Shown here: positions 29,747 to 42,596 of the stretch, piece after piece | Position numbering within the stretch: the stretch's first letter is position 1 | Layout: each line of letters opens with the position of its first letter | Assembly (NCBI GenBank): GCA_003599025.1 | Contig: QZIL01000002.1 | Span: forward strand, 1,371 to 65,370 | From: Nitrospiraceae bacterium | Lineage (GTDB): Bacteria; Nitrospirota; Thermodesulfovibrionia; UBA6902 | Length of the DNA stretch: 64,000 nt | Reading direction: 5' to 3' | Position numbers and translations under genes: made by a program | The notes under the pieces: generated by a model | Seen by the model: only the letters and a program-made list of their open reading frames with translations | Database searches by the model: none | Told to the model about the DNA's origin: nothing

Positions 29747-29819
29747 TTATCGTAACCTTTCATCGACAGGGGAAAAAGAGAGGCAGGCGCAAGACCTGCC
29801 CCTCCTTCGAAGTTATTGT

Positions 29820-30830: not shown

Positions 30831-31174
30831 GTTGTCTCCTTTTCAGATTTTTAAGCTTTACTTCAAATGTTATGGCAGGCTTACAAAGAGATTAATTTTA
30901 AAACACTATTGCATTCCCCCTTTCTTCTGCAGCGTTAATGCCCTGCTATATGGTCTTCCTGGTCGTCAAAAACATTCTCTATCAGCTGGAAAACAAAAAG
31001 ATTCGGTTTGGCTTTGAGGACCATTATCAACACGATTACGCAGATTGAAAGGGCTATAACGAGTAAAATCATGCTCTACGATAGCATCAGGAATGTTACA
31101 GCAATATGAAACATGTGTTAAATTATGATGAAGAAGAGATTGTGTCGTGATGTACGTACCATGGACCACATTAT

Positions 31175-31429: not shown

Positions 31430-31591
31430 ACCTCCTCTTAAAAATTATTTTCATTTAAATATCATGAAATGTTCGTACATAGCATTGATTGCTATGAAGA
31501 TAACAGAAGAATGTTAAAACAATATTAAAGTCATATGAAATTCAGATTAAATCATGCGTTTGCATCCGCAATCACCGGACTTCCGTCTTTG

Positions 31592-31876
31592 TTAATACGG
31601 TCTGTTTTCCCTTCCTCGCAAAGTAAGATGATGCAGTTCTTCGCTCGCGGCCAGGTCTTTTATATACGCATAAATATCTATTGCGGATGGATCATACATT
31701 ATGGTTATGCTGCCGGTCAGTGGATTTGCGCTGATATCTTTTATGCCTTCAGATCGATTATCGGCAGATATTTTCTCTGCAAGCACTTTCAGTTCTGCCA
31801 TCGTCATCGATTTCAGCATAGGTATGTGTACTCTGATTCTTCCCGGTATGTGATGTTTGACGGTATAAGAAATCAT
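31592..31876 (-). CDS. HMA-like (HMA_2-type) domain protein, no CxxC (paralogue 1)
   Basis: From ATG 31876 it reads MISYTVKHHIPGRIRVHIPMLK...IKDISANPLTGSITIMYDP. The same xPGRxRV...N.xTGSxxIxY pattern recurs in three other proteins of this locus. The track ORF starts at a GTG at 31897. Confidence 0.6.
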   Translation of the reverse strand: MISYTVKHHIPGRIRVHIPMLKSMTMAELKVLAEKISADNRSEGIKDISANPLTGSITIMYDPSAIDIYAYIKDLAASEELHHLTLRGRENRPY

Positions 31877-32073
31877 TTTCCACCCATAACTATCCACTTT
31901 TTTTTAATTGTGATCGAGCGTCATCAATACGGTATCAAGATTATTGTTACACCGTTATAACACTAGTGTTACATTCCAGTGAAAAGTAGGCATGTAATGA
32001 AAGATCCTATAGACGCGCTGTTTTGACGGTGTTAGACTTCTTGTATCGATATACAAGAATCACTGGAGGCATT

Positions 32074-32364
32074 ATGGGATTACTCAATAATGGTTTAAAA
32101 GGGAATGTGTTGACCGGACTCGCAATCGGTCTCGGCGCTGCGATACTGGCCCCGGCAGTGCTCCCGGCGCTGGCAGGAGCGGCAAAGCCCCTGCTCAAAG
32201 CCGCCATCAAGGGCGGTCTTGTTCTCTATGAGAAGGGAAAAGAGACTTTTGCCGAGCTGAGTGAAGTCACGGAAGATATCATCGCGGAGGCCAAAGCCGA
32301 AATGGCTGAAGTACACAACGAAGCTGAGCCCGCCCCGGCTCCTGAAGGAGAAACGGGGGCATGA
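32074..32364 (+). CDS. DUF5132-like small protein
   Basis: Start at ATG 32074 (GGAGGcatt-ATG). GLAIGLGAAILAPAVLPALAGAAKPLLKAAIKGGLVLYEKGKETFAELSEVTEDIIAEAKAE matches the DUF5132 pattern. Confidence 0.6.
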   Translation: MGLLNNGLKGNVLTGLAIGLGAAILAPAVLPALAGAAKPLLKAAIKGGLVLYEKGKETFAELSEVTEDIIAEAKAEMAEVHNEAEPAPAPEGETGA

Positions 32365-32365
32365 T

Positions 32366-32845
32366 ATGCAGGTTGCTTTTGTAAGTCACCAGACAGGGAC
32401 CCGGCTCAGGATCAAGGTGCCTTCAAAGAGGAAGGACAAAGATTTTCTTTCTTCTCTTGCAGCAGAGATATCCGGGATTGATGGAGTAACAAATGTTGAG
32501 ATCAACAAGCATACCGGCAGCATATTGATCCATCATTCACATGTTCCCGTCAGCATTGTTGAAACGATAAAAGCAAATAAGCTTCTCGCATTTGCAGGTC
32601 AACGATTTGCCCGCACACACCTTCACCGGAGGGTCAACGATGCATTCAAGGAGGCTGACGTCGCCATGCGCGATATTACGGGGAACGAGCTGGATATCGG
32701 CGGGGCCGCGTTTCTCGCGCTTATAGGAGCAGGAATCTATCAGGTATGGAGGGGGAATGTCACTGCAATCCCCTGGTACGCAGCCGGATGGTATGCCCTT
32801 AATATTTTTCTTAAAGCTACTTCCGATAAAGAGCACTCCGTCTGA
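32366..32845 (+). CDS. HMA-like domain protein with C-terminal membrane segment (paralogue 2)
   Basis: The ATG lies 1 nt after the DUF5132 stop (ATGATATG). It reads MQVAFVSHQTGTRLRIKVPSKR...VTNVEINKHTGSILIHHS, followed by C-terminal hydrophobic helices GGAAFLALIGAGIYQVW..AIPWYAAGWYALNIFL. Confidence 0.6.
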   Translation: MQVAFVSHQTGTRLRIKVPSKRKDKDFLSSLAAEISGIDGVTNVEINKHTGSILIHHSHVPVSIVETIKANKLLAFAGQRFARTHLHRRVNDAFKEADVAMRDITGNELDIGGAAFLALIGAGIYQVWRGNVTAIPWYAAGWYALNIFLKATSDKEHSV

Positions 32846-32969
32846 TTTAACAGAAATTTAACCGGGCAGTCACGGGCCTGTAAAGGGGGGTTCGTTATCA
32901 TAATGTATCATTTTTTTTAATTGCATAACCAGTCGATTCATTTCAAAACGTCAAAAAAGGAGGTCTACT

Positions 32970-33650
32970 ATGACGAATGAACAAGCAATAGGCGAAGAGG
33001 ATTTTCAGGAAGGCATCGGCAGGGCCGGTTCCACGGTAAAGGAGGGCGTCATCAGCAGCCTTAAAGGAATCAATGAGATCGAGGCTGAGATCGTAACGCT
33101 TGTACGAAGCACCGTATCCAATGCGATCCGTGCAGCGGGGGAAGTAGCGACAGAGAGCGTCGATATCACGAGAGATGTCATGAAGGGCGCGATTCAGGCA
33201 ACTGAAGAAGTTGGCACAGGTCTCATCCTGAGCACCAAAAGCGTTGCAAAGGGAATAGTCATGGGCGTAAGTGACGTTGGCGGAGATGTAATTACCGTTT
33301 CCAGCCAGACAGTAAAAGGCGCTGTAAAGGGGGCTGCAGATATAGGAGCAGATGTGGCTCTCGTGGCGCGGCGGGCAGTTGACGGCGTAATCGAAGCAGG
33401 CAAGGAAGTCGGCGCCAATGCGGGTGATGTCGCAATATCTGCGGTAAACGGCGCTTTGGAAGCAGCAGGCGCTATCGGCAGCACGGCAGTGCACTCTGTC
33501 AGGGAGATGCTTCTGGGCGTGGTTGGAGGGGTAAAGGATGTTGCAAACGCCGCGCTCCCGAAACCGCGGAGGACTGAAACTGCTGCATCAGCCAGGACTG
33601 CGGCCCCGGTGAAGGTTACTACCAAGACACGGGGCAAACGGGGTAAATAA
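32970..33650 (+). CDS. Ala/Gly/Val-rich repeat protein with basic C-terminal tail
   Basis: It has a strong SD (AAAAAGGAGGTCTACT-ATG). Degenerate repeats of the type V..(K)GA(I/V)..A...G..V run through most of the 226 aa, and the tail is KPRRTETAASARTAAPVKVTTKTRGKRGK. I recognise no family. Confidence 0.55.
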   Translation: MTNEQAIGEEDFQEGIGRAGSTVKEGVISSLKGINEIEAEIVTLVRSTVSNAIRAAGEVATESVDITRDVMKGAIQATEEVGTGLILSTKSVAKGIVMGVSDVGGDVITVSSQTVKGAVKGAADIGADVALVARRAVDGVIEAGKEVGANAGDVAISAVNGALEAAGAIGSTAVHSVREMLLGVVGGVKDVANAALPKPRRTETAASARTAAPVKVTTKTRGKRGK

Positions 33651-33655
33651 TTAGT

Positions 33656-36600
33656 GTGGTCCATACCGTTCACGATTCAGTAAAAGGCCGGGTCAGATTT
33701 AGGGTTGAAGGACTTTACAGAACAGAGACTCTCAGGACAAAAATTGAAGAGGCGCTAGGTCGTCATCCGGACATAACAGGCTTTTCCTCAAATGTCCTGA
33801 CCGGGAGCGTTATTGTCAATTTCAACTCAGGCAATACCTCTGAAATAATAAGCAGGGTCATCGAGGCCGTGGTAAAGGAGTATAACGGCAATAATCATGC
33901 GCCCGGGAGACTTCGCTCACAACAAAATTCCCGCAGCCTGACCGCATCAGTCAATAGATCAACAGGGAGCAATACGGAGCCGGGCGGGAAACTGAACAAG
34001 AGCAGGCGACAGGTCCGCCAGAGCGTCATCCATGCAGAAGACCAGCCTCGTACGCATTGGCACCAGAAAAGCGCCGGTGAAGCCCTTGATTCTGCGGGTG
34101 TGATGCCGGCAGCGGGGCTTTCGGGCAGCGCCGCGTCTGAGCGGCTAAAAAAATTCGGACCAAATCTTCTCCCGGAATCCGTTCCTCGTTCCGGCCTCAG
34201 TATATTTTTTGACCAGTTTAAATCCCTTCCTGTTGCCCTTCTTGGGGTTGCGGCAGCCGTCTCCATAGCTACAGGAGGCATCGCCGATGCTGTCGTAATC
34301 GCGGGAGTGGTCGTCATTAACGGAGTCATCGGCTATACAACCGAGACACAGGCGGAAAAGACCATCCATTCTCTAAAAAGCCTTGTGAGGCCGTCTGCAT
34401 TATGCATAAGAGACGGGGCGCTGAATAATATTTCTGCTGAAAGTATAGTCCCCGGTGATGTTCTTCTCCTGAAACCGGGAAGTTATATAGCAGCGGACGC
34501 ACGGCTGATCGAATCACATCATCTGAGCGTTGATGAATCAGCGCTTACCGGTGAGAGCATGCCGGTCATAAAAAGCGTCCAGACGCTGACTGAATGGGAT
34601 ATACCGCTTGCAGACAGGACGAATATGGTTTATATGGGAACGCTTGTGACCGGGGGACAGGGCCTTGCAGTTGTAACGGCAACCGGTAAATTTACGGAGA
34701 TCGGCAAAATACAGACACTTGTAGGCGACGCGCGTCCTCCTGAAACGCCGATGGAACGGCAGCTTGACAAAATGGGCACACAGCTTGTTTTTATCAGCGG
34801 CGCTGTATGCGGTCTTGTCTTTGTGATCGGACTGCTTAGAGGGTACGGGTTCGTACAGATGCTCAAGACCTCTATTTCACTTGCCGTAGCAGCGGTGCCG
34901 GAGGGACTGCCGACGGTTGCGACTACAACACTGGCGCTCGGCATCAGGAATATGAGAAAACACAACGTCCTTATCCGTCACCTTGACGCGGTAGAAACCC
35001 TCGGCTCTGTACAGACCATCTGTCTTGACAAGACCGGGACCATTACCCTGAACAAAATGACCGTTACCTCCATGTTCATCGGGATGAAGAGGTTAAAGGT
35101 CTCTGACGGAAGATTCCGAAACGGCGACTGTGATATAAATCCGTATGAGTGCGATGAGCTGCTGAGACTTATTCATATCTCATGTCTATGTAATGAAAGC
35201 GACGTCTCCAGTGAAAACGGTGAGTTATTACTCAGGGGCTCGTCTACCGAGAACGCCCTTCTCCAGGTGGCAATAAGCACGGGCGTTCATGTGCCTGAAC
35301 TCCGGCACAAATTCCCTCTCAGGACTATAAGGCACAGGTCTGAAAACAGCAATATTATGGTCACCGTGCACGATATGCATCCTAATTCATCTCACGACAG
35401 GAGGGCGACGATATTCGCAGTAAAAGGCAGTCCGCAGGATGTCCTGTCAATCTGTGCGTGGCACATGCAGGACGGTCGTAAACTCCCCCTCACTACAGAG
35501 AGCAGGGAGGCGATTCAGATCGAAAATGAAAGGATGGCCGGAGAGGCCCTGCGGGTGCTTGGATTTGCCTATGAGTATTCCGATGAATTGAATGAATTGC
35601 CGGAAATGCCGAATATCACCGATAAGGCGCTCGGTTCCATGCCCTTTGTCTGGCTCGGTCTTTCCGGAATGATGGACCCTGTAAGAAACGGCGTAAAGGA
35701 GCTTATAGGCATGTATCATGTAGCAGGAATTGATACGGTCATGATCACCGGAGACCAGGGACCGACCGCTTACTCCATCGGCAAAGAACTGGACCTCAGC
35801 AACGGCAGTCAACTTGAAATACTCGATTCAACACACCTGAACAGCCTTGATCCGGATATCCTGAAGGCGCTGGCTGAAAAGGTACACGTATTCTCGCGCG
35901 TAAGTCCAGCCAATAAGCTCCAGATCGTCCAGTCGCTTCAGTCCTCCGGCAGGGTTGTGGCGATGACAGGGGACGGCATCAATGACGGACCGGCGCTTAA
36001 GGCTGCCGATATAGGCATTGCGATGGGGCACACCGGCACGGACGTGGCGCGTGAAGTCGCCGACGTCGTGATTGAAGACGACAACCTCGAGACTATGATC
36101 ATAGCGATCAGTCAGGGGAGAACTATCTATAACAATATCAGGAAATCAGTCCACTTTCTCCTTTCAACAAACCTGAGTGAGATCATGGTCATGTTCACTT
36201 CCCTGTCTACAGGCATGGGACAGCCGCTCACTGCCATGCAGCTGCTCTGGATCAATCTCATCTCGGACATAGCGCCGGGACTTGCGCTCGCGCTTGAGCC
36301 GCCTGAACCTGATGTGCTCAGCATGCCTCCGAGAAATCCTGCTGAACCGATTATCAGAAAAGATGATTTTAAACGGATAGCCTTTGAATCAGCAATGCTT
36401 TCAGCAGGGGCTATGGGGGCCTACGGCTATGGGATCATGAGATATGGAATGGGGGCGCAGGCAGGTACTATGGCATTTATGAGCCTCACCTTCGGACAGA
36501 TACTCCATGCATTAAGCTGCCGTTCAGAAAACCACAGTATTTATGACAATGCAGGGGCGAACGGCCGTTCGCCCCTACCGCCGAACCGTTATCTTAATGC

Positions 36601-36841
36601 CGCCCTTGCAGGCTCTGCGGCATTGCAGGGACTGGTAATGTTTGTGCCCGGTCTGCGAAACCTGCTCGGACTTTCGCCACTCGGTTTTGCAGACTGGCTT
36701 GTCGTTGGAGGCGCATCAGTAACGCCTCTCCTGATAAATGAAGCTACCAAGAAATCTCATGGAAAGCTGCTGAAGCCATTCGGAGGAGACACGAATGGCA
36801 ACGCTATAAGCGTTCATCACGCAGAGGAGGCATTGGCATGA
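33656..36841 (+). CDS. P2-type cation-translocating P-type ATPase with N-terminal HMA-like domain (paralogue 3)
   Basis: Motifs present are TGES (ALTGESMPV), PEGLP in TM4, DKTGTITLN, MITGD and TGDGINDGPALKAADIGIAMG, plus Cation_ATPase_N and C regions. The first ~70 aa, VHTVHDSVKGRVRFRVEGLYR...SSNVLTGSVIVNFN, are the HMA-like fold without CxxC. It has a GTG start. Confidence 0.9.
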   Translation: MVHTVHDSVKGRVRFRVEGLYRTETLRTKIEEALGRHPDITGFSSNVLTGSVIVNFNSGNTSEIISRVIEAVVKEYNGNNHAPGRLRSQQNSRSLTASVNRSTGSNTEPGGKLNKSRRQVRQSVIHAEDQPRTHWHQKSAGEALDSAGVMPAAGLSGSAASERLKKFGPNLLPESVPRSGLSIFFDQFKSLPVALLGVAAAVSIATGGIADAVVIAGVVVINGVIGYTTETQAEKTIHSLKSLVRPSALCIRDGALNNISAESIVPGDVLLLKPGSYIAADARLIESHHLSVDESALTGESMPVIKSVQTLTEWDIPLADRTNMVYMGTLVTGGQGLAVVTATGKFTEIGKIQTLVGDARPPETPMERQLDKMGTQLVFISGAVCGLVFVIGLLRGYGFVQMLKTSISLAVAAVPEGLPTVATTTLALGIRNMRKHNVLIRHLDAVETLGSVQTICLDKTGTITLNKMTVTSMFIGMKRLKVSDGRFRNGDCDINPYECDELLRLIHISCLCNESDVSSENGELLLRGSSTENALLQVAISTGVHVPELRHKFPLRTIRHRSENSNIMVTVHDMHPNSSHDRRATIFAVKGSPQDVLSICAWHMQDGRKLPLTTESREAIQIENERMAGEALRVLGFAYEYSDELNELPEMPNITDKALGSMPFVWLGLSGMMDPVRNGVKELIGMYHVAGIDTVMITGDQGPTAYSIGKELDLSNGSQLEILDSTHLNSLDPDILKALAEKVHVFSRVSPANKLQIVQSLQSSGRVVAMTGDGINDGPALKAADIGIAMGHTGTDVAREVADVVIEDDNLETMIIAISQGRTIYNNIRKSVHFLLSTNLSEIMVMFTSLSTGMGQPLTAMQLLWINLISDIAPGLALALEPPEPDVLSMPPRNPAEPIIRKDDFKRIAFESAMLSAGAMGAYGYGIMRYGMGAQAGTMAFMSLTFGQILHALSCRSENHSIYDNAGANGRSPLPPNRYLNAALAGSAALQGLVMFVPGLRNLLGLSPLGFADWLVVGGASVTPLLINEATKKSHGKLLKPFGGDTNGNAISVHHAEEALA

Positions 36842-38046
36842 AAAAGGACTTCATATTTTCCTCGGAGTCGGTCACTGAAGGGCACCCGGACAAGTTATGC
36901 GATCAGATCAGTGACGCGATCGTCGATCATTTTCTCCAGCAGGACCCTTTTTCGTCCGTTATAGCTGAGTGCGCTGTCTCGACCGCCATTCTCTTCATCG
37001 CTGCCAGGTTTTCATCTGAAGCATATGTCGACTTCTCAAACGTGGCGCGCAATGTTATAAGCCAGATAGGTTACGAACAGAAGGAGTTCAACAGTAAGAC
37101 CTGCAGCATTATTACGAGCCTTAAGGAACTGCCCCTCACTGAAGAACATAATTTCGATGAGCGGAAGCTCACGGAGGAGGAGATGGACCATATTCCGGTA
37201 AGGAACCAGGTCACGCTCTTTGGTTTTGCGTGCGATCAGACAGCCTCCTTTATGCCTCTTCCGGTATGGCTTGCACACAAGCTCTCAAGACGGTTGACAT
37301 CGGTAAGGGTACAGAAAATCCTTCCCTACCTCATGCCTGACGGCAAAACACAGGTGGGAGTTGAATATGTAGACAGCAGGCCGCGCAGGATCCACAGTGT
37401 TACTGTTATTGCTTCCCAGCTTAAGCCGTCTGTCAAAGGGGGGCCTGATCTTCAGCAGTTGAGGGACGATATTATTGACAACATAGTCACCCCGGCATTC
37501 CATGATGAAGAAATAAAGCCTGATGACAGGACAGGAATTTTTATTAATCCTGACGGCCCTTTCATCGTCGGCGGGCCTTCTGTCCATTCCGGACTCACCG
37601 GGCGCAAAAATGCGATAGACACCTATGGAGAGTATTCACGCCACAGCGGCGCAGCCCTCAGCGGAAAGGACCCGGTAAGGATCGACCGGGTAGGCGCGTA
37701 CGCAGCGCGCTACGCGGCCAAAAATGCGGTTGCGGCAGGACTGGCCCGTGAATGCGAGGTCCAGCTCAGCTATTCGATAGGTCGTGCACGGCCGGTCAGC
37801 ATCCAGGTCGAGACCTTCGGCACCGGCAGGATACCGGACGATAAGATTGCCGGACTCATCGGGAGACACTTTGATTTTCGTATCGCCGGCATACTCCGGC
37901 GGTTCAACCTAAGATACCTTCCCTCCATCATCAAGGGAGGGTTTTACAGAAAGCTTAGCGCCTATGGTCACGTAGGTAGAATGGACATCGGGCTCCCCTG
38001 GGAGCTGACAGACAAGTCGGCAGAAATCAGGGACGACGCAAAATGA
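36838..38046 (+). CDS. Divergent S-adenosylmethionine synthetase (MetK)-like protein
   Basis: SESVTEGHPDKLCDQISDAIVD, PDGKTQV, GLTGRKNAIDTYG, SGKDPVRIDRVGAYAARYAAKNAVAAGLA, and AYGHVGR align with MetK over the full length. Several catalytic motifs are altered (see findings). The start overlaps the ATPase stop (ATGA). Confidence 0.75.
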   Translation: MKKDFIFSSESVTEGHPDKLCDQISDAIVDHFLQQDPFSSVIAECAVSTAILFIAARFSSEAYVDFSNVARNVISQIGYEQKEFNSKTCSIITSLKELPLTEEHNFDERKLTEEEMDHIPVRNQVTLFGFACDQTASFMPLPVWLAHKLSRRLTSVRVQKILPYLMPDGKTQVGVEYVDSRPRRIHSVTVIASQLKPSVKGGPDLQQLRDDIIDNIVTPAFHDEEIKPDDRTGIFINPDGPFIVGGPSVHSGLTGRKNAIDTYGEYSRHSGAALSGKDPVRIDRVGAYAARYAAKNAVAAGLARECEVQLSYSIGRARPVSIQVETFGTGRIPDDKIAGLIGRHFDFRIAGILRRFNLRYLPSIIKGGFYRKLSAYGHVGRMDIGLPWELTDKSAEIRDDAK

Positions 38047-39020
38047 CACTGAGCGAGTTACTTGCAACATACACGGCGCATTCCGGCAATTTCACGTGGA
38101 TAAATATAGACGACCCTGACACCGAGCATTTAAACGCCCTGAAAACGCTCCACCCGTTCAATGACCTCAATCTCGAAGACTGTCTTTCAGAGACCCAGAT
38201 ACCGAAGATCGATGAGTATGATGACTACCTCTTCATCGTCCTCCACTTCCCGCGCTATGTGAAGGCAAAAAGATATTCCGTCCCCATACAGCTCTCGGTC
38301 TTCCTGGGGAAGAATTTTCTCGTGACCGTTCATAACGGCGAACTGAAGCCGCTGCAAAATCTCTTCTCCACGTACCGGAAAGGCAATCACCCTGTTGCGG
38401 AATCGAACGGCAGGAATCAACCTGCAAACGGCCTGTCATCGCCTGCAAGCCTGCTTTACTCGATCATTTACAATCTGTCTGAAAACCTGTTTGTGATGTC
38501 TTCAAAAATACTGACCAGCATTGTGGAGATTGAAGAGGCTGTCTTTGACGAGCACGTCAGCGCGGTCCACGAGGTGACCGGGCTTCGTCATAACCTTGCC
38601 AACTTCAGAAGGATCGTGTTTCCGCTGAAACGCGTCATCCATGATCTCGAAAAAAAGGTCCTGCAGTTTACGAGGGAAGACATGGGCATATACTTCAGCG
38701 ACCTCACGGACTACATAGACAAGGTCTGGACGACCCTTGAAGAATGCAGGGAGACGCTCGATATCTACAAGGAAACAGACATAATCATAAGCTCCAACAG
38801 GACCAACAAGATACTGACCGTCCTCACCATCCTGTTCACCTTTTCCATACCCGTGACAGTAATGGGGACCCTTTACGGCATGAATGTTCACCTGCCCGGC
38901 GGCGTGGACAAGCCATGGATGTTTCTCGGCCCCTATACGACCTTTATTGTCATAATGACCGCTTCGATCATGCAGGTGCTGTGCATGTTCTATATTTTCA
39001 GGCGATTGAGGTGGCTTTGA
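38043..39020 (+). CDS. corA: CorA-family divalent cation channel
   Basis: It has a cytoplasmic alpha/beta domain, two C-terminal TM helices and the YGMN signature (GTLYGMNVHLPGG). It overlaps the metK-like stop by 4 nt. Confidence 0.85.
   Translation: MTLSELLATYTAHSGNFTWINIDDPDTEHLNALKTLHPFNDLNLEDCLSETQIPKIDEYDDYLFIVLHFPRYVKAKRYSVPIQLSVFLGKNFLVTVHNGELKPLQNLFSTYRKGNHPVAESNGRNQPANGLSSPASLLYSIIYNLSENLFVMSSKILTSIVEIEEAVFDEHVSAVHEVTGLRHNLANFRRIVFPLKRVIHDLEKKVLQFTREDMGIYFSDLTDYIDKVWTTLEECRETLDIYKETDIIISSNRTNKILTVLTILFTFSIPVTVMGTLYGMNVHLPGGVDKPWMFLGPYTTFIVIMTASIMQVLCMFYIFRRLRWL
38969..39014 (+). repeat. 46-nt exact direct repeat, copy 1 (3' end of corA)
   Basis: CATGCAGGTGCTGTGCATGTTCTATATTTTCAGGCGATTGAGGTGG is repeated exactly at 40004-40049. 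Confidence 0.9.
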
Positions 39021-39121
39021 AGGAATAGACAGCGTGCCTGCCTGTTGTCAGACAGGTTACCTGACCCGGAGCATCGGTACCGCAGGTTTAACGAGACACA
39101 ATGAGACGAAGGAGACTTACC

Positions 39122-39673
39122 ATGACAGATACATTTGAAACAGTACTCGCAAATGTTCACACAGGCATTGGACAGGGTGGCGTTTTAGAGCAGATCGATA
39201 AACTGTATCGTAAGCAGCAAAGGCTGACATTATTTCAAATGCTCGAAAAGGTTGATAATGAAGAGATAGAATATTTTCCGGTCGTTCTCTATAAGCATAT
39301 TAAGCAAGTTGGGAAAAAGAGGCCGGCCTCATTGCGGTTCTCCCTGCCGCTATGGAAATATCATGATGAGATTTTTTGGCAATCGCTCGGCGATTATGTC
39401 ATTCTCGCAGTGCATCGTGTAAAAGACATAGACTTCGACAGGGAAAGAGGCCTGATGAAGGTGGAATATTTTGCTAAAATAAAAGGCCGGATAAAATATC
39501 CGGAAGACATCAGGGAGATAATCCGGAAGATTGCTTATCTTGTGGATACTGAAGCCTTACCGACTGATTTCACACGCTTCCGGCGCATGACAGAGCGGCG
39601 TGACAGCCTGGGCGAGATGAGCAAAGAACAGGCTGCACTCATCGGGGCGGCATTGAAGTTTATCCAAATATAG
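39122..39673 (+). CDS. Hypothetical 183-aa protein inside the corA-flanked insert
   Basis: Start at ATG 39122 (GAAGGAGActtacc-ATG). I recognise no family. Confidence 0.5.
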   Translation: MTDTFETVLANVHTGIGQGGVLEQIDKLYRKQQRLTLFQMLEKVDNEEIEYFPVVLYKHIKQVGKKRPASLRFSLPLWKYHDEIFWQSLGDYVILAVHRVKDIDFDRERGLMKVEYFAKIKGRIKYPEDIREIIRKIAYLVDTEALPTDFTRFRRMTERRDSLGEMSKEQAALIGAALKFIQI

Positions 39674-39699
39674 CAGAGGGCAATTCACACCAGCCCCAG

Positions 39700-39906
39700 A
39701 TGAGGCTTGTTCATAACGGGGTACAAGGAGCTATGCAAAAGGTTCTATCCGTAGTTAATCTCAAGGGCGGCGCCGTGATACTCACTGACCGGATTTCACA
39801 CGGGGCAGACGACTACCGCTTTGTAGCGCTCTGGCTTGACGAGCGCATCAGCGGGATGGCGGGATCCGGGTCAACTCAGGTTCGCCATATGATATCTTCT
39901 CTATAA
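39700..39906 (+). CDS. Hypothetical small ORF (weak)
   Basis: It is an open frame only. A possible internal start is MQKVLSVV after AAGGAG. I recognise no family. Confidence 0.2.
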   Translation: MRLVHNGVQGAMQKVLSVVNLKGGAVILTDRISHGADDYRFVALWLDERISGMAGSGSTQVRHMISSL

Positions 39907-39950
39907 AACAGGTTTGAACTTCTAAACAGTTCGGTCTTGCGCAGAACCGA

Positions 39951-40055
39951 TTATCGTTTCTCAGTTCTTACACAACTTTTATGATTGCTCTTGCCGCTTC
40001 ATGCATGCAGGTGCTGTGCATGTTCTATATTTTCAGGCGATTGAGGTGGTTATAG
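39951..40055 (+). pseudogene. Remnant of a second corA 3' end (last TM helix only)
   Basis: It reads LSFLSSYTTFMIALAASCMQVLCMFYIFRRLRWL-stop, compared with FLGPYTTFIVIMTASIMQVLCMFYIFRRLRWL-stop at the end of intact corA. An in-frame TGA lies at 39915. Confidence 0.75.
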
Positions 40056-40213
40056 CGGGATGATTTCTTCTGTTCCGATTCTTCGCCTCCACTGCCCGGT
40101 TCAGGGACCGTTCTGATACCTTCCAGCAAGTCGGCAAGATCATGACCTTCCGCCTTTCCTCTTCTCTCGTAGAGCTCATAGGCTGCATGACCTGTCATGT
40201 TTTGCGGATTCAT
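40025..40213 (-). CDS. DUF2934-like small protein
   Basis: Start at ATG 40213 (AAGGAGGTGcatcc-ATG). AAYELYERRGKAEGHDLADLLEG matches the DUF2934 core (AYxLWExRGxxxGxDxxDW). Confidence 0.55.
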   Translation of the reverse strand: MNPQNMTGHAAYELYERRGKAEGHDLADLLEGIRTVPEPGSGGEESEQKKSSRYNHLNRLKI

Positions 40214-40246
40214 GGATGCACCTCCTTTCATCTTAATCTCATTCTC

Positions 40247-40639
40247 CTATAAGACATGCCTGGACGGTGTAGCCATTCGTCTCAGCGTCTCGTAATGTTC
40301 CTGGCAGTTCCTGCAGTGGCGGGTAAAAGGAACGGCCCTCAGCCTTTCCTCCCCGATTTCATTATCACACGCTTCACATATGTGATAAGTCCCGTCATTG
40401 AGCCGCTTCAGTGCCTCATCAATTGATTTGATCAGATAAGCCTGGTTGCCGAACAGCGTGCTCTGCATATTCTCGATTTGAGTAATTACCGCCATATCAC
40501 CCTCATCAAATCCCGGACCAAGGATTTCTCTTACTTCTCCCGAACGCATGGTCTTCATACCATCTTTTGTGCTTTGCAGTATGATTTTTCTTTTTTCAAA
40601 AAGCATACTCTTTACTTCTTGACTCACGATATTTTTCAT
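40247..40639 (-). CDS. DksA/TraR-family C4 zinc-finger protein
   Basis: A coiled-coil N-part is followed by GTYHICEACDNEIGEERLRAVPFTRHCRNCQE, the CxxC-N17-CxxC DksA/TraR finger. Confidence 0.85.
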   Translation of the reverse strand: MKNIVSQEVKSMLFEKRKIILQSTKDGMKTMRSGEVREILGPGFDEGDMAVITQIENMQSTLFGNQAYLIKSIDEALKRLNDGTYHICEACDNEIGEERLRAVPFTRHCRNCQEHYETLRRMATPSRHVL

Positions 40640-40869
40640 AGCAGCCTCCTGATAAATTTATTAAATACAGGATCAGTATATAAAGAAGATGGTTGCCTTT
40701 TGATGACAGCCGTATGAAATCTCGGTTAAAGCGTAAGAGGGGCATGAGGACAGCTCTTATAATTTAACAACCTTTTAATTGAATCTTCATAATAACGTAA
40801 CGCTGCCGGGATTAAAATTAATTTCTTTAAAAGAAACTGAAAGACAGTTGCTTATCACGGAGCGCTGAC

Positions 40870-41628
40870 ATGAAAAGGAATTTGCGCATGCGTCGCATGC
40901 CTGACATCATACTCTACACAGTTGCATTCCTGCTGATCACCTGCTCCCACGTGTCCGGCCAGGAGAATTTCGGCCCGGAAGAATGGATCAGGCGGGCGGA
41001 ACGGACGTTGTCCTCAGTTACCAGTTACGCGGCCGTTTTTCACAAGCAGGAAAGGATAGGAGACACACTCAACAAGAAAGAAACGATTTATCTGAAATTC
41101 ATGAAGCCTTTTAAAGTTTATATGAAATGGATAAAGGAACCTTCTTGTGGAAGGGAGGCCATTTATGCGGACGGCAGCAATAAAAATCTCGTGAAGGTCC
41201 ATGAATGCGGACTTGCAGGGTTTATGGACCTGGACCTCGATCCTGGCGGGCACATAATAATGAGGGGGAGCCGTCATCCGATGACTGATGCCGGTATTGA
41301 GAACCTCGTTCATTTCATCGGACGGGAGATCCGGACAGGGATGAAAAACAAAGAGCTTGATGTTATCGACAGGGGCGATGAAATTGTTTATGGCCGCAAG
41401 ACCAGAAAGGTGGAATTCATCTTCCCCTCATCCGCGATAAAAGGGTATTACTGTTACAGGTCAATATTAAATATCGATATTGAAACCGATCTGCCGGTCA
41501 AGGCGTGTCTGTTCGACTGGAAGGACAGGGTCATCGAGAGGTATGGATATGAATCCCTGCATCTGGACCCCGGTCTCACAGATACTGACTTTGACCCATC
41601 CAACCCGGAATACGCGTTCAGGGGGTAG
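40870..41628 (+). CDS. DUF1571-like secreted protein (LolA-like fold family)
   Basis: It has a signal sequence, then SYAAVFHKQERIGDTLNKKETIYLKFMKPFKVYMKWIKEPSCGREAIYADG...HPMTDAGIENL, which resembles DUF1571. Confidence 0.55.
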   Translation: MKRNLRMRRMPDIILYTVAFLLITCSHVSGQENFGPEEWIRRAERTLSSVTSYAAVFHKQERIGDTLNKKETIYLKFMKPFKVYMKWIKEPSCGREAIYADGSNKNLVKVHECGLAGFMDLDLDPGGHIIMRGSRHPMTDAGIENLVHFIGREIRTGMKNKELDVIDRGDEIVYGRKTRKVEFIFPSSAIKGYYCYRSILNIDIETDLPVKACLFDWKDRVIERYGYESLHLDPGLTDTDFDPSNPEYAFRG

Positions 41629-41815
41629 GCCGTCCGCATTTCTCTTACATCCCGTATTCGGAACAACGGATTGTTTCACCGGCAAATTGCTTGAGCACTA
41701 CAGGAAGAGGCTGAGACATGCGGCTTTACATCATGATGACGGGAACATTAGCAGGGGGAATGCAACAGATATGCAACAGATATGCAATAGGGAGGTAAAA
41801 CAACAAAGCAGCCGC

Positions 41816-42187
41816 TCAGATCAGCAGACCGATGAGCGAAAGTGCGGAGCCTTCAAAGGCCTTTTCAAGCGCCATACCAAGGGCGGCCCTGCCTATAACA
41901 CGGCCTGTCTTTTCCGCGGCATTATGTAAGTATCCATCATTTGACATCGCCTTTTTCCGGTCGAAATACCCTTTGCGCTCAAGCAGGCCGATTATGTCCT
42001 CATAGTTCGTTGTGCGGTTGTTATAGTTAATCAGGAGACTCCCTGTGATGGGATTGAAGTCAACTGCGGCAATCCCCTGAATTGTGCTGAGGGCAAACTT
42101 GAGTTCGTCTGCGGCAGCATCGTTTCTCTTAAGAAGCGGGCTCTTTACCCTGAGCCTTCCCGGAACATTATGCATGTAATAGCTCAT
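41816..42187 (-). CDS. HMA-like domain protein (paralogue 4)
   Basis: ATG 42187 (AAGGAGGAAGC-ATG) overlaps the stop of the upstream zinc-ribbon gene (ATGA). It reads MSYYMHNVPGRLRVKSPLLKR...IAAVDFNPITGSLLINYNN and has a hydrophobic C-terminus SALSLIGLLI. Confidence 0.6.
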   Translation of the reverse strand: MSYYMHNVPGRLRVKSPLLKRNDAAADELKFALSTIQGIAAVDFNPITGSLLINYNNRTTNYEDIIGLLERKGYFDRKKAMSNDGYLHNAAEKTGRVIGRAALGMALEKAFEGSALSLIGLLI

Positions 42188-42483
42188 GCTTCCTCCTTGA
42201 GAAAATATTTTTTGAAGGTTTTGCATACCGGATATCCCGAACATCTGAACCTGATGACATTGCCCTCCAGCTTATAAACATTCATGGGCTTCCCGCATTC
42301 AGGACACACCGGCTTGCCCTGTACCATCGGCTTCCTTGTCCCCATGGTGAATTGCCTGCTGCACATAAGACACAGGTAACGCTGCTTCCCTGTCTTGATC
42401 CTGCCGTTTTTGTATACTGCATCAGCAGAACAGGCTGGGCACTGTATCTCTGCCTTGTCGGTCATGACAGTATCTGTTTTCAT
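42184..42483 (-). CDS. Double zinc-ribbon protein (InsA-like CxxC..CxxC ribbon plus topoisomerase-type C4 finger)
   Basis: The first ribbon is CPACSADAVYKNGRIKTGKQRYLCLMCSRQF, similar to the IS1 InsA finger. The second is CPECGKPMNVYKLEGNVIRFRCSGYPVCK, similar to zf-C4_Topoisom. Confidence 0.6.
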   Translation of the reverse strand: MKTDTVMTDKAEIQCPACSADAVYKNGRIKTGKQRYLCLMCSRQFTMGTRKPMVQGKPVCPECGKPMNVYKLEGNVIRFRCSGYPVCKTFKKYFLKEEA

Positions 42484-42596
42484 ATTATTATGATATACAT
42501 GCTATGTTGCGCAATGATGAACGGCATATTAAATTTCTGTAACATTTCCTGCGGGTGAAGACGAGGTGGGATGAGTTGTTCTGCGGACAATTATGC

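What the first reader, a model, noticed from the sequence alone, without database searches (positions are those of the whole stretch)
31592..42483. Four CxxC-less HMA-like paralogues organised around a P2-type ATPase / MetK-like / CorA operon
The same ~65-aa module occurs four times within 11 kb. Its pattern is x-(P/K/T)G-R-(I/L/V)-R-(V/I/F) near the N-terminus and N-x-x-TGS-(I/L/V)-x-(I/V) at the end:
- a stand-alone protein (31592-31876);
- fused to a C-terminal membrane segment (32366-32845);
- the N-terminal extension of a P-type ATPase (33656-);
- a stand-alone protein translationally coupled to a double zinc-ribbon protein (41816-42187).
None contains Cys, so these are not classical metal-binding HMA domains. 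The ATPase they decorate has PEGL in TM4, making it P2-type (Ca/Mg/Na-like), not the CPx-type heavy-metal pumps that normally carry HMA domains.
The ATPase, a divergent MetK-like protein and a CorA channel are linked by 4-nt ATGA overlaps. A DUF5132 protein and a 226-aa Ala/Gly/Val repeat protein sit just upstream.
A pump, a channel and multiple soluble or membrane-tethered copies of the pump's own N-domain suggest an uncharacterised cation-handling or regulatory module. In that reading the free domains would compete with or mimic the ATPase N-terminus.
Basis: partly seen in the sequence, partly recalled or inferred. Interest (0 to 1): 0.65.

Follow-up and report, generated by a model that had tools for sequence, protein, structure and literature searches.

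The report
Conserved cation-pump cassette with MetK-like enzyme
This 11-kb stretch holds a gene cassette found in the same order in dozens of species: a calcium-type ion pump, several copies of a cysteine-free "CoBaHMA" domain, two small accessory proteins and an altered copy of the enzyme that normally makes SAM; it resembles the gene sets that build mineral-storing compartments in bacteria, and no paper I could search describes it.

Summary
Four Cys-free modules, and only four in 64 kb, pass Pfam's threshold for HMA_2 (PF19991). This is the published "CoBaHMA" domain, so the domain itself is not new.

The gene set is strongly co-conserved. In 84 sources chosen only by ATPase similarity (57-89% identity), the order is DUF5132 > CoBaHMA+hydrophobic hairpin > 226-aa helical-repeat protein > CoBaHMA-P2A ATPase > MetK-like. 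The submitters assign these sources to Nitrospirota, several Desulfobacterota orders, Planctomycetota and Binatia. Cyanobacteria keep only the ATPase > MetK-like pair.

- **MetK-like:** it follows the pump in 81 of 84 sources.
- **CorA:** present in only 7 sources, so it is a local add-on.
- **The pump:** it has SERCA-like ion-site residues.
- **MetK-like active site:** this distinct clade keeps every triphosphate and metal residue but has E55R and D238H in 75 of 75 sequences and an unconserved gating loop. It is probably not an ordinary SAM synthetase.
- **Regulation:** a conserved DNA motif precedes the cassette and, in five loci, a CDF transporter gene.

Best reading, by analogy only: a ferrosome-like or calcyanin-locus-like module that loads a Ca2+-type cation into a specialised membrane compartment. 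The idea that free domains compete with the pump's N-terminus is untested.

The parts
31592..31876 (-). cA: stand-alone soluble CoBaHMA (HMA_2) protein, 94 aa, divergent from the main operon
   Evidence: Pfam HMA_2 44.4 bits. No hydrophobic segment. A homologue sits at the same position, about -2.1 kb on the opposite strand, in many loci.
31987..32003 (+). Conserved DNA motif TAGGCATGTAATGAAAG in the divergent intergenic region. It is followed by a tentative -35-like TAGACG (32010-32015) and -10-like TAGACT (32033-32038).
   Evidence: It is the only 0-mismatch match in the window. The core AGGYANGTAATG occurs 53 times in 1.44 Mb of loci against about 1.4 expected. Of these, 41 lie just upstream of DUF5132 and 5 upstream of CDF transporter genes. 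The promoter hexamers were read by eye. The generic sigma-70 scan does not exceed its shuffles.
32074..32364 (+). DUF5132 protein, 96 aa: N-terminal hydrophobic helix with a conserved GLAIG (GxxxG) motif, then an amphipathic or charged helix. First gene of the operon.
   Evidence: Pfam DUF5132 46.5 bits. Hydrophobic stretch at aa 10-40. Conserved GLAIG and KP..KA.IKGG in 70 sequences. GGAGG lies before ATG 32074. Present in 56 of 59 informative non-cyanobacterial loci.
32366..32845 (+). cB: CoBaHMA domain plus a C-terminal hydrophobic hairpin, 159 aa. Its start lies 1 nt after the DUF5132 stop.
   Evidence: Pfam HMA_2 50.3 bits over profile positions 8-140 of 154. The C-terminal part alone matches profile positions 90-141. 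Hydrophobic segment at aa 108-127. Present in 56 of 59 informative loci.
32970..33650 (+). rep226: soluble all-helical repeat protein, 226 aa, with a basic disordered C-terminal tail. No Pfam family.
   Evidence: No Pfam or NCBIfam hit. AF2 pLDDT 83, pTM 0.71, with one long helix and six helices of about 19 aa. The only PDB fold matches are de novo designed helical repeats. Family size is 917 representatives at E<=1e-3. Highly conserved in 78 sequences. Present in 55 of 59 informative loci.
33656..36841 (+). P2A-type (Ca2+-type) P-type ATPase, 1061 aa. It has an N-terminal CoBaHMA domain (aa 1-78, nt 33656-33889) and a low-complexity linker (aa ~79-135).
   Evidence: Pfam domains and HMA_2 33.8 bits. 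Best NCBIfam models are the PMR1 and SERCA types, both below cut-off. The closest solved structures are SPCA1, LMCA1 and SERCA. Ion-site residues E(M4), N..E(M5), N..SD(M6), Q(M8). The N-domain model has an HMA fold plus beta0.
36838..38046 (+). MetK-like paralogue, 402 aa, translationally coupled to the pump by an ATGA overlap. The triphosphate and metal site is intact and the methionine pocket is remodelled.
   Evidence: TIGR01034 373 bits against a cut-off of 309. E55R, D238H and K269R in 75 of 75 sequences, D118N in 66 of 75, and Q98, I102, R229 changed. H14, D16, K17, E42, D163, K245, K265 and D271 are kept in 75 of 75, R244 in 73 and K165 in 69. Directly downstream of the pump in 81 of 84 sources. 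The reverse look-up agrees.
38043..39020 (+). CorA-family channel, 325 aa, with a GMN motif. ATGA-coupled here, but a lineage-specific addition.
   Evidence: Pfam CorA 177.6 bits. NCBIfam corA 130 bits, below the 200.75 cut-off. Found in only 7 of 84 sources.
41816..42187 (-). cD: stand-alone CoBaHMA protein, 123 aa, with a C-terminal amphipathic tail. ATGA-coupled to the Zn-ribbon gene.
   Evidence: Pfam HMA_2 53.1 bits. At least one extra stand-alone CoBaHMA gene occurs in 36 of 39 loci that have >=9 kb on both sides.
42184..42483 (-). Double zinc-ribbon protein, 99 aa (an IS1/IS1595-type ribbon plus a topoisomerase/ligase-type ribbon). Partner of cD and a candidate nucleic-acid-binding regulator.
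   Evidence: Pfam Zn_ribbon_InsA 37.7 bits and Zn_ribbon_IS1595 27.5 bits. NCBIfam NF050000 49.2 bits. Both CxxC...CxxC pairs are conserved in 47 sequences. Present in 26 of 39 full-flank loci, usually next to cD.

Best explanation
The region is one copy of a widely conserved, uncharacterised cassette built around a Ca2+-type (P2A) P-type ATPase.

Shown:
- The pump carries an N-terminal CoBaHMA domain with an RxRxR strand.
- The cassette also encodes a CoBaHMA protein with a hydrophobic hairpin (cB), a small GxxxG membrane protein (DUF5132) and a soluble helical-repeat protein (rep226).
- One to three free CoBaHMA proteins lie nearby, one of them paired with a zinc-ribbon protein.
- A MetK-derived protein is translationally coupled to the pump.
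- A shared upstream DNA motif links the cassette to a CDF transporter gene in five related genomes.

Inferred mechanism:
- The CoBaHMA domains use their basic face to dock the pump and the accessory proteins onto an anionic surface. The published hypothesis for this domain is anionic lipids.
- DUF5132 and cB shape or mark a specialised membrane, and rep226 coats or scaffolds it.
- The ATPase pumps a Ca2+-like divalent cation out of the cytosol into that compartment or domain.
- This makes the cassette a calcium-type counterpart of the ferrosome (fez) cluster and of the CoBaHMA/DUF5132/Ca-exchanger neighbourhood of calcyanin.
- The MetK-like protein still binds ATP or tripolyphosphate with Mg2+ but no longer binds methionine in the canonical way. 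I infer it acts with the pump as a triphosphate-processing or ATP-sensing partner, or adenosylates an unknown anionic substrate. It is probably not a housekeeping SAM synthetase.
For: Domain identity and fold:
- All four modules pass Pfam HMA_2. There are exactly four in 64 kb.
- The AF2 model of the pump's N-domain reads beta0-beta1-alpha1-beta2-beta3-alpha2. It matches MerP, PacS, CopP and Ccc2a at TM 0.74-0.81.
- R12 and R14 are invariant and H6 nearly so in 26 sequences.
- HMA_2 is CoBaHMA, with a beta0 strand, a basic patch and an anionic-lipid hypothesis.

Co-conservation, in loci chosen by the ATPase alone:
- MetK-like follows the pump in 81 of 84 sources.
- DUF5132 + cB + rep226 occur in order in 53 of 59 informative non-cyanobacterial loci.
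- Extra free CoBaHMA genes occur in 36 of 39 full-flank loci.
- The cassette is present in MAGs labelled Nitrospirota, Syntrophorhabdales, Syntrophales, Geobacteraceae, Desulfuromonadales, Brocadia/Loosdrechtia and Binatia. The pump+MetK-like pair is present in Fischerella, Nostocaceae and related cyanobacteria.
- A look-up starting from a MetK-like protein lands in the same cassette.

Pump type:
- PEGL, DKTGT and TGES are present.
- The closest solved structures are SPCA1, LMCA1 and SERCA.
- The SERCA-like ligands E309, N768, E771, N796, S(T799) and D800 are kept, and E908 is Q.

Parallels with organelle loci:
- fez clusters have a P-type ATPase with an N-terminal RxR/RxRxR motif, FezC (HMA annotation plus 2 TM), soluble R-rich proteins and small GxxxG proteins. 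They are necessary for ferrosomes.
- The Microcystis ccyA neighbourhood has two DUF5132 genes, a CoBaHMA+helical hairpin protein, a CoBaHMA protein and a Ca2+/H+ exchanger, with DUF5132 and the exchanger co-expressed with ccyA.
- rep226 relatives lie between a phasin and a WS/DGAT gene in Noviherbaspirillum. Others are fused to a MucR DNA-binding domain next to a DUF5132 gene.

MetK-like:
- E55R, D238H and K269R in 75 of 75 sequences, R229P in 57 of 75, Q98 and I102 variable. All triphosphate and metal residues are kept.
- E55, Q98, I102, R229 and D238 are SAM contacts in E. coli MAT (PMC8727953).
- Clade members are 65-80% identical to each other across phyla but 41-45% identical to E. coli and Thermus MetK.

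Regulation: the motif AGGYANGTAATG gives 53 hits against about 1.4 expected, 41 of them before DUF5132 and 5 before CDF genes.
Against: - No direct evidence exists for a compartment, a granule, or the transported ion. Everything about localisation is by analogy.
- The defining FezB feature, a P1B-6 pump, is absent, and no calcyanin was identified.
- Bacterial P2A Ca2+-ATPases that have been studied, such as LMCA1, are plasma-membrane efflux pumps (my own knowledge). A regulated efflux complex explains much of the same data.
- Cyanobacteria keep only pump+MetK-like, without DUF5132, cB or rep226. The accessory trio is therefore not obligatory for pump function.
- rep226 is very strongly conserved. 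That is unusual for a simple coat protein.
- I could not check whether these genomes hold a second, canonical metK. If they do not, the MetK-like protein must still make SAM.
- The E. coli MetK sequence used for numbering was recalled from memory, although every literature-numbered residue matched.
- Submitters' taxon labels of MAGs may be wrong.
Confidence: 0.4

Rival explanations
1. Regulated plasma-membrane efflux pump. The cassette encodes an ordinary Ca2+ (or Mn2+/Mg2+) exporter in the cell membrane. Its N-terminal CoBaHMA domain is an autoinhibitory or lipid-sensing regulator. The free CoBaHMA proteins, DUF5132 and rep226 tune the pump by competing with or mimicking that domain. No compartment is involved.
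For: - The pump is P2A-type with SERCA-like ion ligands.
- Terminal regulatory extensions are common in P2 and P3 pumps (established knowledge, recalled).
- The published hypothesis for CoBaHMA is a regulatory role through anionic lipids.
- Cyanobacteria keep the CoBaHMA-pump without the accessory trio.
- A CDF efflux gene shares the upstream motif.
- CorA is appended to the operon in this lineage.
Against: - It does not explain why a soluble helical-repeat protein, two small membrane proteins and a MetK-derived enzyme are kept in fixed order across phyla.
- It does not explain why rep226 relatives sit by phasin and WS/DGAT genes or carry DNA-binding domains.
- No test of competition or mimicry was possible.
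Confidence: 0.3
2. Phosphate-linked module. The cassette belongs to a phosphate-economy response, such as Ca/Mg-(poly)phosphate granule formation or membrane remodelling under phosphate stress. The MetK-like protein acts as a tripolyphosphatase or PPi/Pi-releasing enzyme.
For: - pstSCAB-phoU lies next to the cassette in the window and about 20 Nitrospirota loci. PstS-like genes also flank it in a Geobacteraceae MAG (L070) and an unclassified MAG (L082).
- An OlsB-like N-acyltransferase (ornithine-lipid type, 182 bits, below the 320 cut-off) follows MetK-like in 14 loci.
- The MetK-like protein keeps all triphosphate and Mg ligands.
- Ferrosomes store iron as a phosphate mineral (abstract of PMC13307979).
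- From memory (Taylor & Markham 1999): D118N and D238N E. coli MetK mutants lose SAM synthesis about 1000-fold but largely keep PPPi hydrolysis.
Against: - Most pst adjacency is within one order and may be inherited synteny.
- The conserved upstream motif is not found before pstS in the window.
- No ppk, ppx or PPase gene was seen among the recurrent neighbours.
- Tripolyphosphatase activity is only inferred.
Confidence: 0.12
3. Chance neighbourhood. The four HMA-like genes are a lineage-specific expansion of small chaperone-like proteins, metK is the housekeeping gene, and the pump merely happens to lie beside them.
For: - MetK passes the NCBIfam equivalog cut-off. Databases name the clade methionine adenosyltransferase.
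- Part of the wider synteny (pst, GT21, PHP, GH1) looks lineage-specific.
Against: - The gene order is kept in 53 of 59 informative loci. The pump/MetK-like pair is kept in 81 of 84 sources from several phyla, including cyanobacteria, where the flanks are unrelated.
- The MetK-like clade has fixed substitutions at SAM-contact residues.
- ATGA coupling is present.
- The upstream motif is position-specific.
Confidence: 0.03

Closest known systems
CoBaHMA domain family (Pfam HMA_2, PF19991; Benzerara et al. 2022, PMC8890360; Gaschignard et al. 2024, not readable here)
   Same: - All four modules pass the Pfam threshold.
- They share the HMA ferredoxin-like fold with an extra N-terminal beta0 strand, a conserved His, and basic residues in beta1 (RxRxR/K/H).
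- None has a CxxC motif.
- They occur both as single-domain proteins and fused to membrane proteins.
   Different: Nothing separates them from the family. They are members. What I did not find in the searchable literature is this architecture in context: a P2A pump fusion within a fixed five-gene cassette with a MetK-like gene.
Ferrosome (fez) gene clusters: FezB, FezC, FezA and related proteins (bioRxiv 10.1101/2020.01.10.902569)
   Same: - A P-type ATPase with an N-terminal RxR/RxRxR motif.
- A protein with an HMA-type N-domain plus two TM helices (FezC here, cB in the window).
- Additional soluble R-rich proteins (cA, cD).
- Small hydrophobic GxxxG proteins (FezA-like there; DUF5132 with GLAIG here).
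   Different: - The pump is P2A (PEGL, SERCA-like site), not P1B-6 (D[Y/F]SCA and HNxxT).
- No FeoA, DUF4405 or ferritin-like gene is present.
- The cassette has rep226 and a MetK-like gene, which are not listed for fez.
- Homology of DUF5132 to FezA and of cB to FezC was not tested, because no Fez sequences were available here.
- No granule has been observed.
Microcystis ccyA (calcyanin) neighbourhood for intracellular amorphous CaCO3 (bioRxiv 10.1101/2024.07.07.602159)
   Same: DUF5132 genes, a CoBaHMA protein with a C-terminal helical hairpin, a free CoBaHMA protein and a Ca2+ transporter lie side by side. DUF5132 and the transporter are co-expressed with ccyA.
   Different: - The transporter there is a CAX Ca2+/H+ exchanger, not a P-type ATPase.
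- The hairpin there matches DUF454. cB's hairpin does not.
- No calcyanin, rep226 or MetK-like gene is shared.
- The cyanobacterial copies of this pump (Fischerella, Nostocaceae) lie in unrelated contexts.
P2A Ca2+-ATPases: SPCA1 (7yag), LMCA1 (6zhf), SERCA (1su4 and related entries)
   Same: Full P-type core, 10-TM layout by Pfam, PEGL in M4, N and D in M6. N and E in M5 match SERCA N768 and E771.
   Different: - It has a 135-aa N-terminal extension, made of the CoBaHMA domain and a linker, that the three compared pump types lack in the alignments.
- Gln stands at the position of SERCA E908 and Ser at T799.
- Scores are below the NCBIfam equivalog cut-offs for the PMR1 and SERCA types.
- Ion specificity is untested.
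MetK / methionine adenosyltransferase (E. coli 1RG9, Thermus 5H9U)
   Same: Three-domain MetK fold by Pfam, TIGR01034 above cut-off, and the GHPDK, PDGK, GLTGRK and SGKDP..DR motifs. All triphosphate, Mg and K ligands are kept.
   Different: - Fixed changes at SAM and methionine contacts: E55R, D238H, K269R, mostly D118N and R229P.
- The GAGDQG signature is replaced by (V/A)(R/K)NQV, and the gating loop is unconserved.
- The clade is 41-45% identical to canonical MetK but 65-80% identical within itself across phyla.
- The gene is always coupled to the pump gene.
Granule-surface proteins with DNA-binding tails (PhaF/PhaM-type phasins, MLDS of Rhodococcus). Recalled from memory, an analogy only.
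   Same: rep226 is a soluble helical protein with a basic tail. Relatives sit beside phasin and WS/DGAT genes or carry a MucR DNA-binding domain.
   Different: There is no sequence or fold similarity to phasins. Pfam gives no hit and Foldseek returns only designed repeat proteins. Binding to any inclusion is untested.

Membership tests
CoBaHMA / Pfam HMA_2 (PF19991) | Match to the family profile above Pfam's gathering score | tested here: met
   44.4, 50.3, 33.8 and 53.1 bits against a gathering score of 30, for all four modules.
CoBaHMA / Pfam HMA_2 (PF19991) | HMA-superfamily ferredoxin-like fold with an additional N-terminal strand beta0 | tested here: met
   Tested on the ATPase N-domain only. 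The AF2 model (pLDDT 84) has E2-6, E12-17, H24-36, E40-46, E51-56, H62-78. Foldseek top hits are MerP, PacS, CopP and Ccc2a at TMt 0.74-0.81. The other three modules are inferred from the alignment.
CoBaHMA / Pfam HMA_2 (PF19991) | Conserved basic residues in beta1/beta2 and a His in beta0 | tested here: met
   RxRx(R/K/H) is present in all four, with R13 and R15 invariant. A His lies 5-6 residues upstream in all four. R12 and R14 are invariant and H6 >=90% conserved in 26 sequences.
Classical HMA (PF00403) metal-binding domain | CxxC metal-binding motif in the beta1-alpha1 loop | tested here: not met
   No Cys in any of the four modules. PF00403 scores only 17.1 bits against a gathering score of 24.8, for one module.
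P2A-type Ca2+ P-type ATPase | P-type core motifs and PEGL in M4 | tested here: met
   DKTGT 458, TGES 298, GDGIND 772, PEGL 415. Pfam E1-E2_ATPase, Cation_ATPase_N, Cation_ATPase_C and Hydrolase.
P2A-type Ca2+ P-type ATPase | Ca2+-site ligands equivalent to SERCA E309, N768, E771, N796, T799, D800, E908 | tested here: inconclusive
   E, N, E, N, S, D are present and Q stands at 908. This comes from alignments to SPCA1 and LMCA1 plus my recalled SERCA motifs. The residues are conserved in the family. The pattern is compatible with Ca2+ but does not prove it.
P2A-type Ca2+ P-type ATPase | NCBIfam equivalog cut-off for the PMR1-type or SERCA-type | tested here: not met
   620 bits against 798.3 (TIGR01522) and 544.7 against 703.4 (TIGR01116).
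P1B heavy-metal ATPase, including FezB/P1B-6 | CPx/SPC-type or D[Y/F]SCA motif in the metal-binding TM helix | tested here: not met
   M4 is AVPEGLPT. The best P1B model scores 237.9 bits against a cut-off of 346.
MetK (SAM synthetase) | Three MetK domains and the NCBIfam equivalog score | tested here: met
   PF00438, PF02772 and PF02773. TIGR01034 373.2 bits against 309.4.
MetK (SAM synthetase) | Triphosphate, Mg2+ and K+ ligands (H14, D16, K17, E42, D163, K165, R244, K245, K265, D271) | tested here: met
   H14, D16, K17, E42, D163, K245, K265 and D271 are kept in 75 of 75, R244 in 73 and K165 in 69.
MetK (SAM synthetase) | SAM and methionine contacts E55, Q98, I102, R229, D238 (PMC8727953) and the GAGDQG signature | tested here: not met
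   E55R and D238H in 75 of 75, R229P in 57 of 75, Q98 and I102 variable, GAGDQG replaced by (V/A)(R/K)NQV.
MetK (SAM synthetase) | Catalyses ATP + Met -> SAM | not testable with these tools
   This needs an enzyme assay.
Ferrosome (fez) cluster | FezB-type P1B-6 ATPase | tested here: not met
   The pump is P2A.
Ferrosome (fez) cluster | R-rich N-terminal motif on the pump and on extra soluble or membrane proteins, plus small GxxxG proteins | tested here: met
   GRVRFRV on the pump; RIRVH, RLRIK and RLRVK on cA, cB and cD. GLAIG is conserved in DUF5132. This is a resemblance of pattern. Homology to Fez proteins was not tested.
Ferrosome (fez) cluster | Needed for membrane-bound, metal-rich granules | not testable with these tools
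   This needs microscopy and genetics.
Calcyanin (ccyA) iACC locus | Calcyanin with a C-terminal (GlyZip)3 domain | not tested
   No calcyanin profile or sequence was available. None of the cassette proteins was compared with one.
CorA Mg2+/Co2+ channel | Pfam CorA and the GMN motif | tested here: met
   177.6 bits against 27. YGMN is in the sequence. The NCBIfam corA equivalog cut-off is not reached, 130 against 200.75.

The most novel reading that the evidence does not exclude
The cassette specifies a previously unrecognised membrane-bound storage compartment for a Ca2+-type cation, probably as a phosphate or carbonate phase. It would occur in anaerobic Nitrospirota, Desulfobacterota, anammox Planctomycetota and Binatia. 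It would be built on the same CoBaHMA/GxxxG logic as ferrosomes but with a P2A pump. A MetK-derived enzyme would have been recruited from SAM synthesis to a new ATP/tripolyphosphate-dependent reaction that serves the pump.
Probability: 0.25. Interest if true: 0.9.

Novelty: new variant of a known kind. Interest (0 to 1): 0.72.

Why it matters
Ferrosomes and cyanobacterial carbonate inclusions showed that small gene sets can build mineral-storing organelles in bacteria. This cassette may extend that logic to a different pump class and a different cation. It occurs in many uncultured anaerobes that matter for sulfur, nitrogen and carbon cycling.

It also gives the CoBaHMA domain, whose function is still only hypothesised, a well-defined and widely conserved genetic context in which to be tested.

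It exposes a large clade of proteins that databases call methionine adenosyltransferase but whose methionine pocket has been rebuilt. Either SAM synthetase tolerates far more active-site change than thought, or this is a new enzyme or regulatory partner of a P-type ATPase, and thousands of annotations are wrong.

The pump+MetK-like pair exists in a cultured cyanobacterium, Fischerella muscicola PCC 7414, so part of this is directly testable.

Tried and rejected
- **Riboswitch control:** no Rfam match in 30800-43400 even at E<=1. The only hit in the window is a c-di-GMP riboswitch at 63.5 kb.
- **Generic promoter and terminator scan:** counts are not above the shuffles. The promoter hexamers I give were read by eye.
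- **CorA as a core member:** rejected, since it occurs in 7 of 84 sources. hyp190, DksA-like, DUF1571 and LMW-PTP are also not conserved with the cassette (3-12 sources).
- **A fifth CoBaHMA copy in the window:** none found.
- **cB's hairpin as DUF454 (as in Microcystis):** no hit even at E<=1. It matches only the rest of the HMA_2 profile.
- **A natural structural relative of rep226:** Foldseek against the PDB gave only de novo designed helical repeats.
- **Calcyanin near the cyanobacterial pump copies:** the Fischerella locus L081 has unrelated neighbours.
- **Upstream motif as a Pho box:** it does not occur before pstS in the window.
- **Literature:**
  - A search for MetK-like paralogues returned nothing relevant.
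  - DUF5132 appears in a single paper.
  - CoBaHMA appears in five papers, none describing this cassette.
  - The CoBaHMA family paper (10.1002/prot.26668) is not held, so its list of architectures could not be checked.
- **Word-indexed protein search with rep226:** it missed the close orthologues seen in the loci. The exhaustive profile search was used for family size instead.
- **A second, canonical metK in the same genomes:** I could not test this.

Full report
**1. The observation**

Pfam assigns the same family, HMA_2 (PF19991, gathering score 30), to all four modules:
- 31592-31876(-): 44.4 bits.
- 32366-32845(+): 50.3 bits.
- N-terminus of the ATPase at 33656: 33.8 bits.
- 41816-42187(-): 53.1 bits.

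They align with invariant RxR and NxxTGS residues and contain no cysteine. An HMM built from the four finds exactly those four in the six-frame translation of the whole 64-kb window, at 98-112 bits. The next hit scores 7 bits.

The remaining details also hold:
- PEGL, DKTGT, TGES and GDGIND are present in the pump.
- The three ATGA overlaps are real: pump/MetK, MetK/CorA and Zn-ribbon/CoBaHMA.
- DUF5132 is confirmed, and its likely start is ATG 32074 behind a GGAGG.
- The 226-aa protein has no Pfam or NCBIfam family.

**2. What the domain is**

HMA_2 is the Pfam model of the CoBaHMA domain ("Conserved Basic residues HMA"). It was first seen at the N-terminus of calcyanin, the marker of intracellular amorphous Ca-carbonate in cyanobacteria. 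It is defined by the HMA fold, an extra strand beta0 with a conserved His, a patch of basic residues and the absence of CxxC. Its proposed role is regulatory, possibly through anionic lipids.

I modelled the pump's N-domain with 26 aligned sequences. The model has pLDDT 84 and reads beta0-beta1-alpha1-beta2-beta3-alpha2. Its best PDB matches are classical HMA domains (MerP, PacS, CopP, Ccc2a), at TM 0.74-0.81 and rmsd about 1.3-1.5 Å. So the four modules are bona fide CoBaHMA domains. The domain is known; its function is not.

**3. Is the gene set conserved?**

I scanned one genome per GTDB species with the ATPase alone. The scan found 292 relatives, and 80 loci were kept at 57-89% identity. 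The submitters label them as follows:
- Mostly Nitrospirota/Thermodesulfovibrionia.
- Also Syntrophorhabdales, Syntrophales, Syntrophobacteraceae, Geobacteraceae and Desulfuromonadales.
- Also Ca. Brocadia and Ca. Loosdrechtia, Binatia and Deferrimicrobium.
- Five cyanobacteria, including Fischerella muscicola PCC 7414.

I searched the six-frame ORFs of these loci, plus three fetched by exact protein, with the window's proteins. The result was a constant order: DUF5132 > cB (CoBaHMA + hairpin) > rep226 > CoBaHMA-ATPase > MetK-like.
- MetK-like lies directly after the pump in 81 of 84 sources. Two of the three exceptions are contigs that end at the pump's stop codon.
- All three upstream genes are present in order in 53 of 59 non-cyanobacterial loci with enough upstream sequence.
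- At least one further stand-alone CoBaHMA gene is present in 36 of 39 loci with 9 kb on both sides. A Zn-ribbon gene is present in 26 of 39, usually as a pair with cD.
- Cyanobacterial pumps carry the CoBaHMA domain and the MetK-like neighbour but not the upstream trio.
- CorA is present in 7 sources only.
- A look-up that started from a MetK-like protein landed in the same cassette.

**4. The pump**

The closest solved structures are SPCA1 (496 bits), LMCA1 (488 bits) and SERCA2 (413 bits). The alignments show the following ion-site residues:
- M4: PEGL.
- M5: STNLSE. These are the equivalents of SERCA N768 and E771. SPCA1 and LMCA1 have Ala at the E771 position.
- M6: INLISD (N796, Ser for T799, D800).
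- M8: Gln where SERCA has E908, SPCA1 has Asp and LMCA1 has Arg.

These residues are conserved in the family. The SERCA numbering is from my own knowledge. The pump is thus a P2A, Ca2+-type ATPase. It falls below NCBIfam's equivalog cut-offs for both the PMR1 and SERCA types. Its ion is inferred, not shown.

**5. The MetK-like protein**

It passes TIGR01034, but it belongs to a clade that is 65-80% identical within itself. The window's copy is 65-68% identical to the cyanobacterial copies. The clade is only 41-45% identical to E. coli or Thermus MetK, which are 60% identical to each other.

In 75 pump-linked sequences:
- The triphosphate and metal residues H14, D16, K17, E42, D163, K245, K265 and D271 are invariant. 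R244 (73 of 75) and K165 (69 of 75) are nearly so.
- E55 is Arg, D238 is His and K269 is Arg in 75 of 75.
- D118 is Asn in 66 of 75 and R229 is Pro in 57 of 75.
- Q98, I102 and the rest of the gating loop are not conserved.
- GAGDQG has become (V/A)(R/K)NQV.

E55, Q98, I102, R229 and D238 are listed as SAM contacts of E. coli MAT in PMC8727953. From memory (Taylor & Markham 1999), D118N and D238N mutants of E. coli MetK lose SAM synthesis about 1000-fold but largely keep tripolyphosphatase activity.

I infer that this protein still binds ATP or PPPi with Mg2+ but does not bind methionine in the usual way. The two acidic residues that hold the amino group are replaced by basic ones. That suggests either an anionic co-substrate or no co-substrate. 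I could not check whether the same genomes hold a canonical metK.

**6. The accessory proteins**

- **DUF5132** has one hydrophobic helix with a conserved GLAIG (GxxxG) motif, followed by a charged helix.
- **cB** has a CoBaHMA domain and a C-terminal hydrophobic hairpin that belongs to the HMA_2 profile itself.
- **rep226** is predicted as one long helix plus six helices of about 19 residues, with a disordered basic tail (pLDDT 83, pTM 0.71).
  - Only designed helical-repeat proteins resemble it in the PDB.
  - The family has 917 representatives at E<=1e-3 in 1.84 billion proteins and no Pfam model.
  - In Noviherbaspirillum autotrophicum a homologue lies between a phasin gene and a WS/DGAT gene.
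  - Elsewhere the domain is fused to a MucR zinc-finger DNA-binding domain, with a DUF5132 gene next door and no pump, or to a CheY receiver.

**7. Regulation**

A motif, TAGGCATGTAATGAAAG (31987-32003), lies about 70 nt upstream of the DUF5132 start, measured from the motif's end. Its core, AGGYANGTAATG, occurs 53 times in 1.44 Mb of loci against about 1.4 expected. Of these, 41 are before DUF5132, 5 are before CDF cation-efflux genes and 1 is before a second rep226 gene. No riboswitch was found. The binding factor is unknown. The Zn-ribbon protein is a candidate only by position.

**8. Interpretation**

The composition mirrors two experimentally anchored systems.

- **Ferrosome clusters.** They have a P-type ATPase with an N-terminal RxR/RxRxR motif, FezC (HMA-annotated N-domain plus two TM helices), extra soluble R-rich proteins and small GxxxG proteins. 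Deleting fezBC abolishes ferrosomes.
- **The Microcystis ccyA neighbourhood.** It has two DUF5132 genes, a CoBaHMA protein with a helical hairpin, a free CoBaHMA protein and a Ca2+/H+ exchanger. DUF5132 and the exchanger are co-expressed with ccyA.

I therefore favour, at about 0.4, a module that assembles a Ca2+-type pump and its accessory proteins on a specialised anionic membrane and loads a cation into it, with the MetK-like protein as a coupled partner.

A phosphate-linked variant, at about 0.12, rests on three observations:
- Recurrent pst/PstS adjacency.
- An OlsB-like gene after MetK-like in 14 loci.
- The retained triphosphate site of the MetK-like protein.

Membership in the fez family is excluded by the pump type. 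The claim is "works like", not "is".

**9. Novelty**

The domain is known. The searchable literature does not describe any of the following:
- The cassette as a whole.
- The strict pump/MetK-like coupling.
- The remodelled MetK clade.
- The rep226 family.
- The shared upstream motif.

The CoBaHMA family paper could not be read. It may already list P-type ATPase fusions. I recall that its abstract mentions transport and lipid-metabolism proteins.

Noticed in passing
window 63500-63578 (+): c-di-GMP-I-GGC riboswitch aptamer (RF03167), 73.3 bits against a gathering score of 59. EAL-domain genes are also recurrent neighbours of the cassette, in 32 loci.
   Followed up: no
window 38959-39014 and 39994-40049: A 56-nt direct repeat, 95% identical. 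The 3' end of corA is duplicated about 1 kb downstream and brackets the non-conserved 190-aa ORF (39101-39673). This looks like an insertion or partial duplication behind corA.
   Followed up: partly
window 32040-32057 (+): Inverted repeat CTTGTAT-CGAT-ATACAAG between the putative -10 element and the DUF5132 ribosome-binding site. It is only partly kept in the closest relative, L004 (CTTGTATAAATATTTAAG).
   Followed up: no
L005 18926-19828; also L001, L006, L022, L034: A CDF transporter gene preceded by the same upstream motif as the cassette. By eye, against CDF motifs recalled from memory, its TM2 and TM5 site-A positions read F..N / L..D instead of the usual H..D / H..D. NCBIfam gives only the generic CDF superfamily above its cut-off.
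   Followed up: partly
window 26540-30830 (-); L001, L003 and about 20 other loci; L070 3018-4094: The pstSCAB-phoU operon lies next to the cassette in many Nitrospirota. PstS-like genes also flank the cassette in a Geobacteraceae MAG and an unclassified MAG.
   Followed up: partly
L017 16380-17210 and 13 other loci (about +4.7 kb, same strand): An OlsB-like N-acyltransferase (ornithine-lipid type, 182 bits, below the 320 cut-off) lies directly after the MetK-like gene. L003 has a PlsC-type acyltransferase nearby.
   Followed up: partly
L086 8001-9077 and 9381-9659; L084 10001-10708: The rep226 domain is fused to a MucR/Ros zinc-finger DNA-binding domain and followed by a DUF5132 gene, with no pump. 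A free rep226 homologue lies between phasin and WS/DGAT genes in Noviherbaspirillum autotrophicum.
   Followed up: partly
L001 7940-8197 (-) and 17 other loci; L005 22266-22517 (-) and 20 other loci: Two families of small Cys-rich ORFs (about 85 aa, no Pfam or NCBIfam hit for the one tested) recur near the cassette. One sits at about -2.3 kb.
   Followed up: no
window 50067-60473 (-): A single ORF of 3468 aa. It was not examined.
   Followed up: no
L070 1100-2846 (-), L074, L076: Some Desulfobacterota and Binatia loci carry second copies of rep226 and DUF5132 beside the cassette.
   Followed up: no
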